Shown: positions 15,348-45,405 of the stretch, piece by piece | Numbering within the stretch: the stretch's first letter is position 1 | How the letters are laid out: each line of letters begins with the position of its first letter | Assembly: GCF_009914755.1 (NCBI RefSeq) | Contig: NC_060927.1 | Source: the human T2T-CHM13v2.0 reference genome, Homo sapiens | DNA: 64,000 bases | Strand: one strand, 5' to 3' | Position numbers and translations under genes: made by a program | Notes under the pieces: generated by a model | Database searches by the model: none | What the model saw: only the letters and a program-made list of their open reading frames with translations | Told to the model about the DNA's origin: nothing

Positions 15348-15476
15348 GAGAAGGTAAAGCTTGATGCTGAAAGGGAAAAACTAGAGAGGCTTCAGGAGCT
15401 TTACTCCGAGCAGAAGACCCAGCTGGACAATTGTCCTGAGTCCATGAGGGAACAGTTACAACAACAACTGAAGAGG
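15348..15476 (+). CDS. PHLDB2: PHLDB2 coding exon (EKVKLDAERE...QQQLKR), 43 aa, phase 0-0, skippable in frame
   Basis: acttcAG acceptor; 129 nt; donor AGG|GTCAGT; E/K/Q/L-rich coiled-coil sequence. Confidence 0.93.
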
Positions 15477-32022: not shown

Positions 32023-32166
32023 GGCTATATCAGTGTAAATGAGATTAATGAGCCGTGTGGCAATTCCACGAATCTATCCCCTTCCACTCAGTTTCCTGCT
32101 GATGCTGATGCTGTTGCCACTGAGCCTGCCACAGCTGTGCTGGCGAGCCAGCCACAGAGTAAAGAG
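32023..32166 (+). CDS. PHLDB2: PHLDB2 coding exon (GYISVNEINE...QPQSKE), low-complexity linker, phase 0-0
   Basis: cctccttttAG acceptor; 144 nt open; donor GAG|GTGTGT. Confidence 0.9.
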
Positions 32167-32792: not shown

Positions 32793-32981
32793 CAAAGATC
32801 ACCTGTCTATTCTGGATTTGTGTTTCCTTCCGCTCTTTCTCCTCATCCTATCACTCAACATACATCAGCCCCATGGCCTGAATTCATGGCTACATCTGTC
32901 GATCCTTTACCTTTAAATGACACACCTCCTCCTTTACCAGCTAAGAAACACAGAAGGCAGCAGCAGCAGCAGGAGCAACAG
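32793..32981 (+). CDS. PHLDB2: Putative alternative PHLDB2 cassette exon (QRSPVYSGFV...TPPPLPAKKHRRQQQQQEQQ), 63 aa, phase 0-0
   Basis: Pyrimidine tract plus ataaAG acceptor; 189 nt, no stop, in frame with both neighbours; donor CAG|GTAATT; not in the canonical protein as recalled. Confidence 0.75.
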
Positions 32982-37020: not shown

Positions 37021-37120
37021 GCCCATCTGCCCCTAGGACAGAGTAACAGCTGTGGAAGTGTGCTCCCTCCCTCACTGGCAGCCATGGCCAAAGACTCAGA
37101 ATCTCGGAGGATGCTCAGAG
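37021..37120 (+). CDS. PHLDB2: PHLDB2 coding exon (AHLPLGQSNS...RRMLR-G), phase 0-1
   Basis: cttcccgcAG acceptor; 100 nt; donor GAG|GTACGT. Confidence 0.93.
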
Positions 37121-39308: not shown

Positions 39309-41367
39309 AGTATTTTCTCAAAGAGTAAGAAAAACTAGAACTTTATAGTAAATAAATAGATTAGCAAAACTCAAGAGCCATTAACATTACCATTTAAGAG
39401 GATTTTGTGAGAATATGGTGAAACCGAGGGAAGGTTTGATCTCAGTTATTCTAATCTGTTTTCCCCTGAAGTAATGGGAATCCCATGCCAGTTTCATAGA
39501 GGAAAACTGAGCTAATTCCCTTAGGCCACATTACTGATGTTCCCGTTGCAAAATCAAATCTGTCTTTGATTTATCTTTAGTGCTCTTGTTCTTTATTGAT
39601 ACGTCCTTTATGCAGCTCAGAAGACTGCAACTTCAGTCTTTCTCTGCTGTAACTGTGAAGTGCTCTTCCTCTTGAAGAGTTTCATGTAATTCTGATGGGG
39701 CAGCTTCTGAGGAAATAAAGAACCATTATATGCGTGTTGGTCCAAGGAGATGTGTTCTGAAAAGACAGCCTGCTGCCTTTGGCTCCCCTACCCAGAGGAG
39801 GAGAAGTCAGGGTCTATAGTTCTTAGAACCCCAGCAGACTGTAAAACTGGCAGGATTTTCTACACAGCCCAAACTGGTGGTTCACAAAAAACCCAGGAGG
39901 GATGGATCATAATTTCATTTAGAATTGTTTGACTAGCACTTGTTAACTTTATTAAAATAGCAAATACAAGTAAAATTCTATGGATTTGAAAAAAATTATA
40001 CCTGGCATATTTTCACTAACTCACATTTAGTAGACTTTAATCATCTTTTAAACTTACACAATTAACTTAAATACACCTTTTTTTGCTGCTATTCGTAATG
40101 GATACATCAAGGATGATGGTGTAAGTATAAGCCTTAATCAGCACTGTTAATAGAACTGACAGCGTGAGTCGTGCAAAGAACTTTGAGAGGAGAGTTTAAA
40201 ACAGAGAGCTGAGAAACTCAGCTTCTGAAGTTGGAATGGTTATTGGCTTTTGAACAACTTGTGAACTATTCCTTTGTCAGCTTTAGAATGAATGAAATCT
40301 TTGTCCTTTTGTTTTTTGTTAAATACAGGAAAGTCCAAGAAAGGTATGACAACCTCCTTGTGTGGTGTTTTTGTTTCCAGCAAATATTGAAAGGTCATTG
40401 TCAAGTCATGTTTAAGAAATGATCAGATTTAACACTGTGCAGTGGTGGATTTTTAGTCTAATGATTATTTCTTTTACACAATAGAGAAAAATTGTTGCAC
40501 ATTTGCAAGAAACACAATGCTGGGTGCAGCTGCTGTTCATTCACTGGCAGCTGCATGACCCTCTTTGTTTTGGCTTTTAATCGCAAGGTCAGACCCTGCA
40601 GGAAACATGAGTGCTGTGGAAGCATTGTTTTGTAAGATTCAGGATCTATATAAAGAGAATAGAGGGTATTGTGATGTATATGAGCTAAGTGTAAACCATG
40701 ATTCTCCTTTAAAAAGGACATGTATAAATAAGTCAGGCTACAGTCAAAGGATGAAAGGATTTAGGAAGCTCCTACTTATTCATTTCATTGGAGCCTGTTT
40801 TCTAAGAAAGACTTAGTGGAGAGTGAAGTATAGTTTAAATGATTGGCTTGAATAAGTAAGATGGTTATTTCCTGTGGCTAGGTGGTAGAGATGTAGGATG
40901 TTAGACGATGTGTTATAAAACTTGATGAACTGTGCTTCAAATAATTGAATGGCATTTTACAAACTTGAGCTCTTAAAAACTATTTGCTATTGTCTGTTTG
41001 GAAAAAGAATTGTTTGATAGATATAATCTGTTTTTATTCTTCCTATTTTCTGGTTGATGAATATGTGTGAAAGATTTATTTGTCTTGTAACAGTCTTTTT
41101 TGACTATGCATGTATCAATTTTTTTTAAGGTTTCTTGAGTTTTTCTCTGTAAACTTGGATTTAATCTGAAACTGTGAACATCATACCTTGTTAATTTGCT
41201 ATTGTAACTAACACCATCAATGAGTGCATGTTGGAAGTGTTGTATGTTTTTCCTGCCCCCTTGTCATCCTTTTTGATCTTGTATCTTTTTCCCTTTCTAC
41301 AATCATTCTCCCTCTTCATTCCTGACTTGTCCTGTGCCCTCTTCTTCTGGCTGTGGACTGTCATTAG

Positions 41368-41388
41368 GAAGAATGAATTCCTCAGCAG
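41368..41388 (+). CDS. PHLDB2: Putative 21-nt PHLDB2 microexon (adds GRMNSSA), phase 1-1
   Basis: tcattAG|GAAGAATGAATTCCTCAGCAG|GTGAGC; AG-free pyrimidine-rich tract 41238-41365; frame-preserving and stop-free in the phase-1 intron. Confidence 0.65.
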
Positions 41389-44143
41389 GTGAGCTATGAC
41401 AGGCTGAATTGTTAGAAATACTGGTTAATTTTATCCTCTTAACCCCAGGTTATACTTTAAGTCATCTTACTTTCTATATTACAGCCCAGATAGCCATGTA
41501 AAAGTATATACCACATATTGGGAATGTATTGGCAGGACTCTACACATTGTGTAATCGTTAACTCACAAGAGACTTTTCAGGTCCAATTAGCCAGAATTAA
41601 TAGAGACTGGCATTAAAAATAATAATAATAAATGGGCCTTGCACATTTGGTCCCTTGGCTGTCCCAGGCAGTGAAGAGCTGAACTGGTTTGGGTTCCTTG
41701 TGTGGCTATGATTAGAAACAAGCCTCAATTAGGTCTTGCTTTATACACCTTATAAACTACCCCTTCAAACAACTATTTCTCTCTGGATAGGAAGGATTTA
41801 GAGCATTTTCAAGGCCCTTTTTACTGTTTTAGTTGCTTTCCCACTGATTAATGTTATTCTTGCTACATAATTAAAAAACAGAAACCAAATAGTCTCAGGG
41901 GTTGGGAAAGTCTCATTTTTCCCAATCTTGTTTCTTTGCTCCCCCTCAAAAAGTAGATGCATTCCACTTCCTTATTTGACTATTTATATAGAATATATAG
42001 ATGAAAAGATAAATTCATTCAGTGACTGTTTATCTTATGACATCCACATGCCAAATAAATGGAGGTAAACTGTGGTGCACAGGACATCTGCATCCCCTTT
42101 CCTGATAAAGCTTCAATGAGAGTGGAGGCCTAGGCCAGTTTACTGCCATTCTAGTGTTCCTTCACTGCACCAGCATCTCTCCTTGGGCCTCCTACCAGGT
42201 TACCCAGCCCCGTCCCCTGATCTTCTATGACATTTCCTCTGTTTAAAATATCTATGCCTTTGGATGGCCAGGCCAGAGCCTGAATCCCAAAATGAGCTCT
42301 TTGGAATCACACTGGTTCAATTGCAGGATCACAGGAGAGGGGCCCATGCCCGTATTGATAATTGCAGGGGTTACCTGTTTTTGGGGGATTTGTTCAGCAG
42401 GGAGGAAGCTAGGCCAGGTGACAGTGGGGTTCACTGAGGTCAGTAAAGTGTTGCCAGTAGGCAGAAATGAGTAGCTCCATGAGGTGAACTTTTCCACTCA
42501 CTTTGGATTCATGGGAAATAAAAATCATGGGTTGGGAAAAAGATGCTTATTATTGGCCTCATGCTTTTTCGTTTAAGTTGCCATGAAAATGTAAAATGCT
42601 TATCCTACCACCAGAATGACTGGGAGATTCAGTCGTAGAGTCAAACCTCAACAACTTGTGAGTTGGTCTGGGGAATTAATATTCACAACCCTTAGCACAG
42701 TACAAATTGTAATGTAGCTGGCCCTTCTACATTCACCTGAAACATCTGAGTCATTTTAGTTTACTATCTCCTTCACCTGTAAGTTCTATTTTGTTATTCT
42801 GTGTTACTTTTGGAAAAGTAGCCGAAAAACAACAACAACAAAAAACACAACCTTGGAAGATCTGAGGAGCAAGACATACAGTTCCCTTAAGAAACATGCT
42901 CACCTTCTTTCCTGCTTTTCCAAGATGGTGGTAATTGCTTCATATGGGTTGGTTTTTCCTCAATGTGAAAACTCAGGGAGAGGAAGAGGTTGTGGCAATG
43001 TCACTCATTGCCAGAGAGATAATTCTTGTATGTTTTAAATTACATGGCTGTCCTTTAGGGATTTGTTTTTCATACTACAAGGAAATATCGTCCATGTAGT
43101 TGGTGCCAATGTGAAACTTTTCTATGCCACAAGCCTTTTTTTGAAATCATAAGAAAATATACGTGTGTGAGCTTTTCAAATAATTTCTGTTGTTTTTTTG
43201 TCATTTGCATAATAAATAATTGGAAACAACTTAAAAGGAGCAATTAGTAATTCCAAAAGTTCAAGTATCAAAGGTAAATATTTGAGTAATGAATTATTTC
43301 GCCTTCCTTAAAAAAAGACGCAGCTTCACGCATGTGACTATACCAGCTTCATTTAATGCTGTGTGGATTGATCATTATAATTCATGACATTCTATTTAGT
43401 CTTGTGGTGTGCTTTTATGTTTTCCATCTTCCCTTAGCTAAATGCTATATGGCTTTAAAAAATACATATGTATTTATAATTTATAATGGCAGATTATATT
43501 AAAGTAACTTATTTTCCCAGAAATGTCTGAATCTGAAATAACCTATTTTCACTTAAATATCTAAAACCACTCCAAATACTAATGGTGTGAATACTCTGCA
43601 TGAAACTAAAACCATTTTACAGAAATTTTGACATACAATGCTTTGTTAAGGCATCATGGATGTGGCTTCTATTTTTAAATGGAAATGTTTAATCAATAGC
43701 TGAGAAAGCCATTGAGAATTACTTCTCTTCTTTCATCCTCTTGCCTACTATTGACCATTTCATTATTACTAAAACTTTCATTGAAAGGTAGGTAGAGCAC
43801 ACAAAAAAGAGGAAATTCAAATGGTCCAGTTGTGAACTCTGAATAGCTCTGGTAATAACTCCCTGGGTAATGGAAACTATTCGAGTAGACATTCTCTTAT
43901 CAGGGAGAAAGAGATTACAAACTCTAGTACTGGCTAGAGAAAAGTTTTTTAATGAATGGAGGAATTTGTTAATCAATATGATGCCTGCTTCTGAGTCTAT
44001 GATAAATAGAGAATTGAAAAGAAAATTTGACTTGTAATGCCCTAAATCAGCGATCAGAGAGCAAGCCATAGCAGTAACACAAGGTAAAGCCAGTAACCTA
44101 AAGTGCCAGGTGACCGAGCACCAGGGTAAAGAAAAGACCTCTT

Positions 44144-45200: not shown

Positions 45201-45405
45201 GTTATAATCACCAACAGATGAGTGAAGGACACAGGCAGAAATCTGAATTTTATAACCGCACAGCATCTGAATCAAATGTCTACTTGAATAGTTTCCATTA
45301 TCCAGATCACAGCTACAAGGACCAGGCCTTTGATACTCTGAGCCTCGATAGCTCTGATAGCATGGAGACCAGCATCTCTGCTTGCTCACCAGACAACATC
45401 TCTAG
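45201..45405 (+). CDS. PHLDB2: PHLDB2 coding exon (G-YNHQQMSEG...SPDNIS-S), phase 1-2
   Basis: ccttccttAG acceptor; 205 nt; donor TAG|GTAAGA; contains DTLSLDSSDSMETSIS motif of the PHLDB family. Confidence 0.95.

What the first reader, a model, noticed from the sequence alone, without database searches (positions are those of the whole stretch)
41100..41394. Hidden 21-nt frame-preserving microexon in PHLDB2 with a neural/muscle-type splicing code
Seen: deep in an 8-kb phase-1 intron, tcattAG|GAAGAATGAATTCCTCAGCAG|GTGAGC. The donor is near-consensus. There is no AG dinucleotide from 41238 to 41365 (128 nt, pyrimidine-rich), a CTGAC branch-like motif at 41322, TGCATG at 41107 and 41225, and ACTAAC at 41207. 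Inclusion changes ...RMLR-G-YNHQ to ...RMLR-GRMNSSA-G-YNHQ with no stop. Established: 3n microexons with long AG-exclusion zones and RBFOX (UGCAUG), QKI (ACUAAY) or SRRM4 (UGC) elements are typical of neuron- or muscle-specific programmes. Inference: a tissue-specific LL5-beta isoform, adding an R-x-x-S potential phosphosite in the disordered region before the last coiled coil. It is not in the canonical protein as I recall it.
Basis: partly seen in the sequence, partly recalled or inferred. Interest (0 to 1): 0.8.

Follow-up and report, generated by a model that had tools for sequence, protein, structure and literature searches.

The report
Known 21-nt PHLDB2 cassette microexon
The flagged 21-base stretch is a genuine, frame-preserving alternative microexon of PHLDB2 that is conserved across placental mammals, but it was already reported from human RNA-seq in 2015 and is modelled in many other mammals, so it is real but not new.

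Summary
Window 41368-41388 is a 21-nt AG/GT-flanked, phase-1 open exon. It lies behind a 128-nt AG-free, 77% pyrimidine tract and has a CAG|GTGAGC donor. In 53 kb of intron it is the only 3n candidate that combines such a donor with a long AG-free zone.

It is a real exon. The peptide GRMNSSA, or a 7-codon variant of it, sits exactly between RMLR and GYNHQ in 138 of the 225 PHLDB2 proteins retrieved. These come from about 39 placental species. A 21-nt PHLDB2 exon at the matching hg19 place is listed among the "predicted novel micro-exons" of Li et al. 2015, found in GTEx brain, muscle and nerve RNA-seq.

It is the middle one of three phase-1 microexons in this intron (15, 21 and 36 nt). The outer two are also present in shark and ray models; the 21-nt one is not.

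The proposed neural/muscle code is not shown:
- Both UGCAUG motifs and the ACUAAC lie upstream, and no GCAUG lies within 300 nt downstream.
- The exon is not in Li's list of brain-specific microexons.
- The R-x-x-S site is present in only 36 of 105 proteins.

Verdict: already known, low interest. Its regulator and function remain open.

The parts
37021..37120 (+). Upstream constitutive PHLDB2 exon. It ends ...CTC AGA G|gtacgt in phase 1 (...RMLR-G).
   Evidence: Hub annotation
40329..40343 (+). Sibling microexon A, 15 nt (GAAAGTCCAAGAAAG, encodes KSKK plus the junction Gly). Acceptor ...aaatacAG, donor AAG|gtatga.
   Evidence: Present in primate and other mammalian models and, as KS[RK]K/KTRK, in 6 of 11 shark/ray models
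41107..41112 (+). TGCATG, 261 nt upstream of exon B
41207..41212 (+). ACTAAC, 161 nt upstream. It lies outside the AG-free zone, with AGs at 41223 and 41236 between it and the exon, so it is unlikely to be the branch point in use.
   Evidence: branch-point reasoning is inference
41225..41230 (+). TGCATG, 143 nt upstream of exon B
41238..41365 (+). AG-exclusion zone and extended polypyrimidine tract: 128 nt, 77% pyrimidine, 12 UCUU/CUCU/UCUC/UUCU tetramers. It contains the candidate branch point CTGAC at 41322-41326.
41368..41388 (+). Microexon B, 21 nt, phase 1-1. It encodes RMNSSA plus the junction Gly and starts with the purine-rich GAAGAA.
   Evidence: Li et al. 2015 Supplemental File 1
41389..41394 (+). 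5' splice site: CAG|GTGAGC, 8 of 9 matches to CAG|GTRAGT
43238..43273 (+). Sibling microexon C, 36 nt (encodes AISNSKSSSIK plus the junction Gly). The acceptor is weak (35% pyrimidine in the last 20 nt); donor AAG|gtaaat.
   Evidence: An 11-residue insert at the same place in 10 of 11 shark/ray models
45201..45405 (+). Downstream constitutive exon. It starts GT TAT AAT... (G-YNHQQM...).
   Evidence: Hub annotation

Best explanation
Window 41368-41388 is a genuine, evolutionarily conserved, alternatively spliced 21-nt cassette microexon of PHLDB2 (LL5-beta). It is the same exon that Li et al. 2015 listed as a predicted novel micro-exon from human brain, muscle and nerve RNA-seq.

Shown:
- It is one of three consecutive phase-1 microexons (15, 21 and 36 nt) in the 8-kb intron.
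- Each begins with GA and ends with G, so every combination stays in frame and keeps a Gly codon at each junction.
- Together they build a variable basic, Ser-rich linker: R-G-[KSKK-G]-[RMNSSA-G]-[AISNSKSSSIK-G]-YNHQ.
- The linker lies in a stretch predicted to be disordered, about 70 residues before the last long helix and the C-terminal PH domain.

Inferred (recognition): the tiny exon is probably defined by its near-consensus 5' splice site, a distal branch point inside a 128-nt AG-free pyrimidine tract, and a GAAGAA purine-rich element at the start of the exon.

Inferred (regulation, about 35%): the weak proximal acceptor combined with a long UCUU-rich tract suggests repression by PTBP-type pyrimidine-tract binders, rather than activation by RBFOX, QKI or SRRM4.

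The function of the 7-residue insert is untested. The most likely effect is to tune the charge, length or phosphorylation of a flexible linker.
For: Sequence anatomy.

Protein models:
- 33 of the 120 listed PHLDB2 proteins (3079 hits in all) carry GRMNSSA exactly at the RMLR|GYNHQ junction.
- A second search, aimed at the insert, listed 120 of 311 hits. All 105 that were new carry a 7-codon insert at the same place: RMNSSA, RMNFSA, RINSLA, RMSFSA, RMNVSA, RMNFPA or RMNFST.
- In total, 138 of 225 proteins carry it.
- The species named span Primates, Dermoptera, Rodentia, Perissodactyla, Artiodactyla including Cetacea, Carnivora, Chiroptera and Pholidota.
- The residues differ between clades while the length stays at 21 nt. 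The exon therefore has to be open and spliceable in each genome.

Human transcript evidence:
- Li et al. 2015 Supplemental File 1 ('Predicted novel micro-exons') lists chr3 111677121-111677142, + strand, 21 nt, PHLDB2.
- Their criteria were canonical splice sites and at least 5% PSI in at least 15% of samples.

Coordinate bridge from hg19 to the window:
- VastDB hg19 rows for two other PHLDB2 exons give offsets of 111,635,768 (at window 15348) and 111,635,756 (at window 32166 and 35663).
- With the second offset, the VastDB 189-nt event lands on an AG/GT-flanked open exon at 32793-32981.
- With the same offset, Li's interval lands at 41366-41386, which is 2 nt from the exon.
- The nearest other AG-N21-GT arrangements are at 41225 and 41403.

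Protein context:
- AlphaFold2 model of the colugo isoform P0011 (603 aa, 39-sequence alignment). The insert (residues 301-308) lies within 180-378, where pLDDT is below 50 and there is no secondary structure. A helix follows at 379-455 with pLDDT of about 80-91.
- The PH domain is at residues 1153-1249 of the 1260-aa macaque isoform.

Pyrimidine-tract reading:
- 12 PTB-like tetramers against an intronic mean of 3.55 (top 2.8%), and pyrimidine content in the top 0.06%.
- Li et al. report higher PTBP1 CLIP density immediately upstream of alternatively spliced micro-exons, and weaker splice sites in micro-exons repressed by PTBP1.
Against: - No junction reads were counted here. The human expression evidence is one line in a supplementary list, which gives no tissue or PSI for this exon.
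- The hg19-to-window match is inferred to within 2 nt, not read from an alignment.
- Many of the protein models are NCBI predictions. Such models can lean on cross-species protein alignments, so they are not independent proofs of expression.
- The second search was aimed at the insert, so '105 of 105' says nothing about inclusion frequency.
- The exon was not found in three other sets of supplementary tables: MicroExonator mouse development (Phldb2 in 0 of 7 files), Tapial 2017 (0 matches to the coordinates), and a lung-cancer rMATS table (0 matches to the approximate hg38 coordinates).
- The PTBP reading rests on motif density alone. A long pyrimidine tract is also simply what a distal branch point needs.
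- The AlphaFold model is poor overall (mean pLDDT 57.9, pTM 0.35). Low confidence is only a proxy for disorder.
Confidence: 0.9

Rival explanations
1. One reading: a neuron- or muscle-specific microexon switched on by RBFOX (UGCAUG), QKI (ACUAAY) and/or SRRM4 (UGC). Inclusion would add a functional R-x-x-S phosphosite.
For: - The motifs are present, and their joint occurrence is uncommon (0.4% of intronic 300-nt windows).
- The exon was discovered in a set made only of brain, muscle and nerve samples.
- Li et al. say that many alternatively spliced micro-exons are used in brain, heart and muscle, and that RBFOX promotes them.
- In primates and some rodents, the junction with the upstream exon reads R-G-R-M-N-S.
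Against: - All three motifs lie 143-261 nt upstream. No GCATG lies within 300 nt downstream, and Li et al. cite downstream binding as the enhancing position.
- ACTAAC lies outside the AG-free zone.
- The nearest TGC is at -33.
- PHLDB2 is not in the file listing the 145 brain-specific micro-exons.
- The discovery set contained no other tissues, so detection there does not show specificity.
- Ser at the R-x-x-S position is present in 36 of 105 proteins. It is Phe or Val in all Laurasiatherian models, and some bats have no Ser in the insert at all (RMNFPA).
- Full-text searches pairing PHLDB2 with Rbfox, Qki or SRRM4 found no paper on this exon.
Confidence: 0.15
2. Splicing noise. On this view it is a fortuitous pseudo-exon, used at trace level and without function, and carried into predicted models by annotation pipelines.
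For: - It is absent from the selected human RefSeq transcript (hub annotation).
- It is absent from three other supplementary sets searched.
- The proximal acceptor is weak.
- Predicted models can propagate between species.
Against: - The 21-nt length, the open frame and the RMN core are kept in about 39 species of 8 orders, with clade-specific substitutions.
- Li et al. required at least 5% PSI in at least 15% of samples.
- The combination of signals is unique within 53 kb of intron.
Confidence: 0.05
3. The exon is real but is mainly included together with its two neighbours, as one co-regulated block. The functional unit would then be the 24-residue insert KSKKGRMNSSAGAISNSKSSSIKG, not the 7-residue one.
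For: - In the unbiased list, the isoform classes are: none 86, B only 15, B+C 7, A+B+C 8, A+B 3. One further protein has a different N-terminus.
- A or C never appear without B among those 120.
- A+B+C models exist in most mammals listed.
Against: - B-only is the commonest inclusion class (15 of 33).
- Combinations in predicted models are not measured abundances.
- Sharks and rays use A+C, or C alone, without any B.
Confidence: 0.3

Closest known systems
The 21-nt PHLDB2 entry in Li, Sanchez-Pulido, Haerty & Ponting 2015, Genome Res 25:1 (PMC4317164), Supplemental File 1 'Predicted novel micro-exons'
   Same: Same gene, strand and length. The hg19 interval maps to within 2 nt of window 41368-41388. 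I take it to be the same exon.
   Different: The paper gives no tissue profile, regulator or function for it. It is not discussed in the main text ('PHLDB2' was found only in that supplement).
NCBI/UniRef predicted PHLDB2 isoforms of other mammals, for example macaque isoform X12 (1260 aa, P0097) and colugo isoform X2 (P0011)
   Same: They carry the identical insertion GRMNSSA at the identical junction.
   Different: They are models in other species. The one human transcript in the hub row (the selected one of 4) lacks the exon. The other three were not visible to me.
Alternatively spliced micro-exons with extended upstream pyrimidine tracts that PTBP1 represses. Li et al. cite the 12-nt KDM1A micro-exon as an example.
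   Same: A short 3n exon, a weak proximal acceptor, and a pyrimidine-rich tract further upstream. Li et al. describe lower thymine content immediately upstream, and higher content beyond 20 nt, for alternatively spliced micro-exons.
   Different: No PTBP1 binding or knock-down response was tested for this exon. Membership is a hypothesis.
Sibling PHLDB2 microexons A (15 nt, 40329-40343) and C (36 nt, 43238-43273)
   Same: Same intron and same phase 1-1. All three start with GA and end with G, all encode basic, Ser-rich linker residues, and they are used combinatorially.
   Different: A and C have counterparts in shark and ray PHLDB2 models (KSRK; ASSNSKGIRRK). No B-like insert appears in 0 of 11 of those models, nor in the non-mammalian representatives aligned across the junction. 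B also has much the longest AG-free zone: 128 nt against 40 and 64.

Membership tests
Alternatively spliced symmetric (3n) cassette micro-exon, 51 nt or shorter as defined by Li et al. 2015 | Internal exon of 3-51 nt, a multiple of 3, flanked by canonical AG and GT | tested here: met
   21 nt, AG at 41366-7, GT at 41389-90
Alternatively spliced symmetric (3n) cassette micro-exon, 51 nt or shorter as defined by Li et al. 2015 | Inclusion keeps the reading frame without a stop | tested here: met
   RMLR-G-RMNSSA-G-YNHQ
Alternatively spliced symmetric (3n) cassette micro-exon, 51 nt or shorter as defined by Li et al. 2015 | Transcript evidence for both inclusion and skipping | tested here: met
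   Listed in Li et al. Supplemental File 1. Models with and without the exon exist in the same species. Reads were not recounted here.
Alternatively spliced symmetric (3n) cassette micro-exon, 51 nt or shorter as defined by Li et al. 2015 | Conservation of length and coding sense across species | tested here: met
   A 7-codon insert in all 105 new proteins, from 8 placental orders. Seen at protein level only; no genome alignments were available.
RBFOX-activated exon | (U)GCAUG in the downstream intron near the exon | tested here: not met
   0 GCATG within 300 nt downstream; two TGCATG upstream at -261 and -143. The position rule is as stated by Li et al..
RBFOX-activated exon | Inclusion falls on RBFOX loss, or CLIP signal is present | not testable with these tools
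   No RNA-seq or CLIP data were accessible
SRRM4-dependent neural microexon | UGC element close to the 3' splice site, between the pyrimidine tract and the AG (feature recalled, not taken from any call) | tested here: inconclusive
   The nearest TGC is at 41335, 33 nt upstream of the exon; none is closer
SRRM4-dependent neural microexon | Neural-specific inclusion | tested here: not met
   PHLDB2 is absent from Li et al.'s file of 145 brain-specific micro-exons. This is one data set only.
QKI-regulated exon | ACUAAY element(s) near the exon, and a response to QKI loss | tested here: inconclusive
   One ACTAAC at -161 and none downstream. A lung-cancer study links QKI statistically to a PHLDB2 skipped-exon event (SE-32992). 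Its tables contain no numbers near the approximate hg38 positions that I extrapolated for the three microexons, so the identity of SE-32992 remains unknown.
PTBP1-repressed exon | UCUU/CUCUCU-rich tract upstream of a weak 3' splice site | tested here: met
   12 PTB-like tetramers in 128 nt (top 2.8% of intronic windows); 77% pyrimidine (top 0.06%); last 20 nt only 60% pyrimidine
PTBP1-repressed exon | Increased inclusion on PTBP1/2 depletion; CLIP binding | not testable with these tools
   No data accessible. The full-text search PHLDB2 + PTBP1 found nothing relevant among the 10 papers listed.

The most novel reading that the evidence does not exclude
Exon B may be a placental-mammal innovation, present at least since Boreoeutheria. 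It was inserted between two microexons (A and C) that date back to the common ancestor of sharks and mammals.

In primates and some rodents, joining it to the upstream exon creates an R-x-R-x-x-S motif (RGRMNS). This resembles a basophilic, AGC-kinase-type site; that resemblance is recalled, not taken from any call. The site could put the LL5-beta linker next to the PIP3-binding PH domain under kinase control.

Inclusion would be governed by PTBP-type repression acting through the 128-nt pyrimidine tract.
Probability: 0.12. Interest if true: 0.4.

Novelty: already known. Interest (0 to 1): 0.15.

Why it matters
The exon itself is already in print (a 2015 supplementary list) and in gene models of many mammals.

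What remains open is modest. Which tissues include it? What controls the three-microexon module? Do 7 to 24 extra basic, Ser-rich residues change how LL5-beta works at the cell cortex (its CLASP/ELKS/filamin partners and its role at the neuromuscular junction are recalled, not from any call)?

The selected human RefSeq transcript lacks all three microexons. Variant interpretation and proteomics searches that use only that transcript would therefore miss them.

Tried and rejected
- Literature, main text. I searched PHLDB2 with microexon, micro-exon, alternative splicing + exon inclusion, Rbfox, Ptbp1, skipped exon, Qki and SRRM4, and LL5beta with isoforms. None of the listed papers deals with this exon. 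The TOGA2 preprint mentions PHLDB2 only for PLCXD2-PHLDB2 fusion transcripts.
- Supplements.
  - MicroExonator (mouse): no Phldb2 in 7 files.
  - Tapial 2017 (VastDB): PHLDB2 occurs 5 times in one file, and I saw 2 of the rows (the 129-nt and 189-nt exons). None of the coordinates of the three microexons is present.
  - Lung-cancer rMATS tables: no numbers near the approximate hg38 positions that I extrapolated for the three microexons.
  - Bhate 2015: the ESRP2-regulated Phldb2 exon is the 144-nt exon, not a microexon.
  - Irimia 2014 (Cell) is not held.
  - Li's supplementary figures PDF and index page could not be read. The per-tissue heat maps, which might show this exon, were therefore not seen.
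- Repeat origin. No notable direct or inverted repeats in 40000-44000. The 401-nt region matches only itself in the window's own genome. I therefore dropped exonisation of a high-copy element, with the caveat that the DNA search skips very common words.
- ACTAAC as the branch point: rejected by reasoning, because two AGs (41223, 41236) lie between it and the acceptor.
- No formal MaxEnt or SpliceAI score could be computed. Consensus-match counts were used instead.
- No vertebrate genome alignments are available, so conservation of the intronic motifs could not be tested.


Full report
**1. The observation**

The sequence is as described. It reads tcattAG|GAAGAATGAATTCCTCAGCAG|GTGAGC, with the exon at 41368-41388. 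The previous AG is at 41236. The AG-free stretch 41238-41365 is therefore 128 nt long, and it is 77% pyrimidine. TGCATG sits at 41107 and 41225, ACTAAC at 41207 and CTGAC at 41322.

The flanking annotated exons end and start as ...AGA G|gtacgt (37120) and ag|GT TAT AAT (45201). A script that joined the exons by coordinates confirms that inclusion reads ...RMLR-G-RMNSSA-G-YNHQ... without a stop.

The signal is not what chance gives.
- In the 53,473 intronic bases of PHLDB2 in the window, 3 of 3428 AGs have an AG-free run of 128 nt or more.
- There are 26 AG...GT candidates of 3-51 nt (3n) with a donor matching at least 8 of 9 positions of CAGGTRAGT. Only one of them also has an AG-free zone of 100 nt or more, and it is the flagged exon. 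The minus strand of the whole window gives 15 and 0.
- The pyrimidine content of the tract is reached by 0.06% of intronic 128-nt windows.

One qualifier: the last 20 nt before the AG are only 60% pyrimidine. That is at the low end of the 14 annotated acceptors in the window.

**2. Is it an exon? Protein models**

I translated the downstream exon (window:45203-45405) and searched the large protein collection for longer proteins. There were 3079 hits, of which 120 were listed; all named rows were primate or colugo PHLDB2. Grouped by what lies between ...SESRRMLR and GYNHQQM:

| Class | Proteins |
|---|---|
| Nothing inserted | 86 |
| GRMNSSA alone | 15 |
| GRMNSSA + GAISNSKSSS[V/I]K | 7 |
| GKSKK + GRMNSSA + GAISNSKSSS[V/I]K | 8 |
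| GKSKK + GRMNSSA | 3 |
| Different N-terminus | 1 |

So 33 of 120 carry exactly the predicted peptide at exactly the predicted junction. An example is the 1260-aa macaque isoform X12, which is 1253 + 7 residues.

The two extra inserts map to the same intron. One is a 15-nt exon at 40329-40343 (acAG|GAAAGTCCAAGAAAG|gtatga). The other is a 36-nt exon at 43238-43273 (aaAG|GAGCAATT...ATCAAAG|gtaaat). All three are phase 1-1, start with GA and end with G. Every combination therefore stays in frame, with Gly at each junction.

A second search was aimed at the insert region of P0006 (residues 898-945). It gave 311 hits, of which 120 were listed. All 105 proteins that were new carry a 7-codon insert at that place.
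- RMNSSA: primates, grey squirrel, deer mouse.
- RINSLA: marmot, ground squirrel.
- RMNFSA: rhinoceros, zebra, cats, fox, mustelids, sea lion, ruminants, pangolin, a horseshoe bat.
- RMSFSA: camels.
- RMNFST: pig.
- RMNVSA: pygmy sperm whale, baiji.
- RMNFPA: two phyllostomid bats.

Together, 138 of 225 proteins carry the insert. That search was biased towards carriers, so it measures phylogenetic breadth, not inclusion frequency. The residues change by clade while the length stays at 21 nt. The exon must therefore be open and splice-competent in each genome, which argues against simple copying of a model from species to species.

**3. Is it an exon? Human RNA**

Li et al. 2015 (Genome Res, PMC4317164) list 'chr3 111677121 111677142 + 21 PHLDB2' in their Supplemental File 1, headed 'Predicted novel micro-exons'. 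I read that file's first part, the passage with the PHLDB2 row, the legends file, and passages of the main text.

Their discovery set was 307 brain, 74 muscle and 47 nerve GTEx samples. They mapped to Ensembl release 70 cDNAs and required canonical splice sites and at least 5% PSI in at least 15% of samples. The PHLDB2 row carries no asterisk. I did not find the meaning of the asterisk stated. The text says that 30 of the 310 exons were already in GENCODE v19, UCSC or RefSeq.

To tie hg19 to the window I used VastDB rows in a supplement of Tapial et al. 2017.
- The 129-nt exon chr3:111651116-111651244 is window 15348-15476, giving an offset of 111,635,768.
- The flanks of event HsaEX0047178 (111667922 and 111671419) are window 32166 and 35663, giving an offset of 111,635,756.
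- With the second offset, that 189-nt event lands at 32793-32981. This is AG/GT-flanked and open in frame, so the bridge works.
- Li's interval then lands at 41366-41386, 2 nt from the exon. The offset had already drifted by 12 nt over the preceding 17 kb.
- The nearest other AG-N21-GT arrangements are at 41225 and 41403.

I therefore take the two to be the same exon. This is an inference to within 2 nt. My recollection that PHLDB2 ends at hg19 111,695,364 gives an exact match (18,222 nt from the exon end to the gene end in both), but that number comes from no call.

**4. Age**

A profile-free search of the 50%-identity representatives with P0025 gave unnamed vertebrate relatives. Seventeen of them aligned to the query segment, and about 11 of these span the junction. 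One of the 11 (P0229) reads ...RRLQGHK-G-KSRK-G-ASSNSKGIRRK-G-GRQHR.

My third named search showed that P0229 is a catshark protein. It returned 11 shark and ray PHLDB2 models.
- 6 have the 4-residue and the 11-residue inserts.
- 4 have only the 11-residue insert.
- 1 has none.
- 0 of 11 has a 6-residue insert between them.

None of the other non-mammalian representatives shows a B-like insert. The outer two microexons are therefore as old as jawed vertebrates. The flagged one is documented only in Boreoeutherian placentals. Its absence elsewhere is weak evidence, because few isoforms per species were seen and no Afrotherian, Xenarthran, marsupial or sauropsid rows were identified.

**5. How it is probably recognised and regulated (inference)**

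The donor matches 8 of 9 consensus positions. The acceptor has a weak proximal tract but a very long pyrimidine-rich AG-free zone. This implies a distal branch point; CTGAC at 41322 lies 41 nt from the AG. ACTAAC at 41207 is unlikely to be the branch point, because two AGs lie between it and the acceptor. The exon opens with GAAGAA, a purine-rich element of the kind known as an exonic enhancer (recalled).

The tract holds 12 UCUU/CUCU/UCUC/UUCU tetramers against an intronic mean of 3.55 (top 2.8%). Li et al. describe just this layout for alternatively spliced micro-exons: less thymine immediately upstream and more beyond 20 nt. They also report PTBP1 CLIP enrichment immediately upstream, and weaker splice sites in micro-exons repressed by PTBP1. 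I therefore rank PTBP-type repression as the most likely control (about 35%), but nothing here tests it.

- Both UGCAUG and the ACUAAC are upstream (-261, -143, -161), and no GCAUG lies within 300 nt downstream. Li et al. cite downstream binding as the enhancing position.
- The nearest UGC is at -33.
- PHLDB2 occurs in only one of Li's files, so it is not among the 145 brain-specific micro-exons of their Supplemental File 2.
- Because the discovery set held only brain, muscle and nerve, detection there does not show specificity.

**6. The protein**

I modelled the 603-aa colugo isoform that carries B alone, using a 39-row alignment (AlphaFold2, mean pLDDT 57.9). The insert (residues 301-308) lies inside 180-378, where pLDDT is below 50 and no secondary structure is predicted. 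A long helix follows at 379-455 with pLDDT of about 80-91. Pfam places the PH domain at 1153-1249 of the 1260-aa macaque isoform.

The R-x-x-S site is not conserved. Ser at that position is found in 36 of 105 proteins, Phe in 63 and Val in 6. The neighbouring Ser is also lost in marmots (L) and in phyllostomid bats (P).

**7. Comparison and verdict**

This is an ordinary member of the class of symmetric alternative micro-exons. It is already listed in print for human and is modelled in about 39 other mammals. No paper in the searchable library discusses it in its main text (and the other searches listed under Tried and rejected). Its regulator, tissue profile and function are therefore still open. 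I could not see whether current GENCODE, VastDB or the other three human RefSeq transcripts carry it.

Novelty: already known. Interest: low. The only mildly new angle is the three-exon module with two ancient members and one younger one.

Noticed in passing
window 40329-40343 and 43238-43273: Two further phase-1 cassette microexons in the same intron: 15 nt (KSKK) and 36 nt (AISNSKSSSIK). Both are absent from the selected transcript and present in many mammalian models. Same-length counterparts exist in shark and ray PHLDB2 models (KSRK in 6 of 11; ASSNSKGIRRK-like in 10 of 11). The 36-nt exon has a very weak acceptor (35% pyrimidine in the last 20 nt).
   Followed up: partly
window 32793-32981: A 189-nt AG/GT-flanked exon, open in frame (63 aa, ending in a Gln-rich run) and not in the selected transcript. 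It corresponds to VastDB event HsaEX0047178, labelled 'SwitchAS' in the Tapial 2017 supplement. It is present in 33 of the 225 retrieved proteins, 30 of which also carry microexon B.
   Followed up: partly
window 32023-32166: This 144-nt exon matches, by eye, the second (unlabelled) 144-nt sequence printed in the Phldb2 row of Bhate et al. 2015, which I take to be the human orthologue. The mouse exon in that row is a developmentally regulated, ESRP2-dependent cassette exon in liver. The human entry is labelled constitutive there.
   Followed up: partly
window 15348-15476: The annotated 129-nt exon (43 aa, EKVKLDAEREK...) is listed as a 'PanAS' event (HsaEX0047185), meaning it is alternatively spliced across many tissues. 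Skipping it would account for 1210-aa isoforms (1253 minus 43), a length seen among the primate models.
   Followed up: no
P0227 (unnamed representative), residues about 875-900: A non-mammalian PHLDB2 relative reads ...RIQK-G-YS-G-AVRHSRGSRKK-A-RNAQQL. This looks like a C-like 11-residue insert preceded by an extra 'YSG' (9 nt). It could be a still smaller microexon or an alternative donor. The taxon is unknown.
   Followed up: no
window 40575-40869: The RefSeq 'silencer' element in the hub table lies between microexons A and B. Nothing I saw links it to splicing.
   Followed up: no
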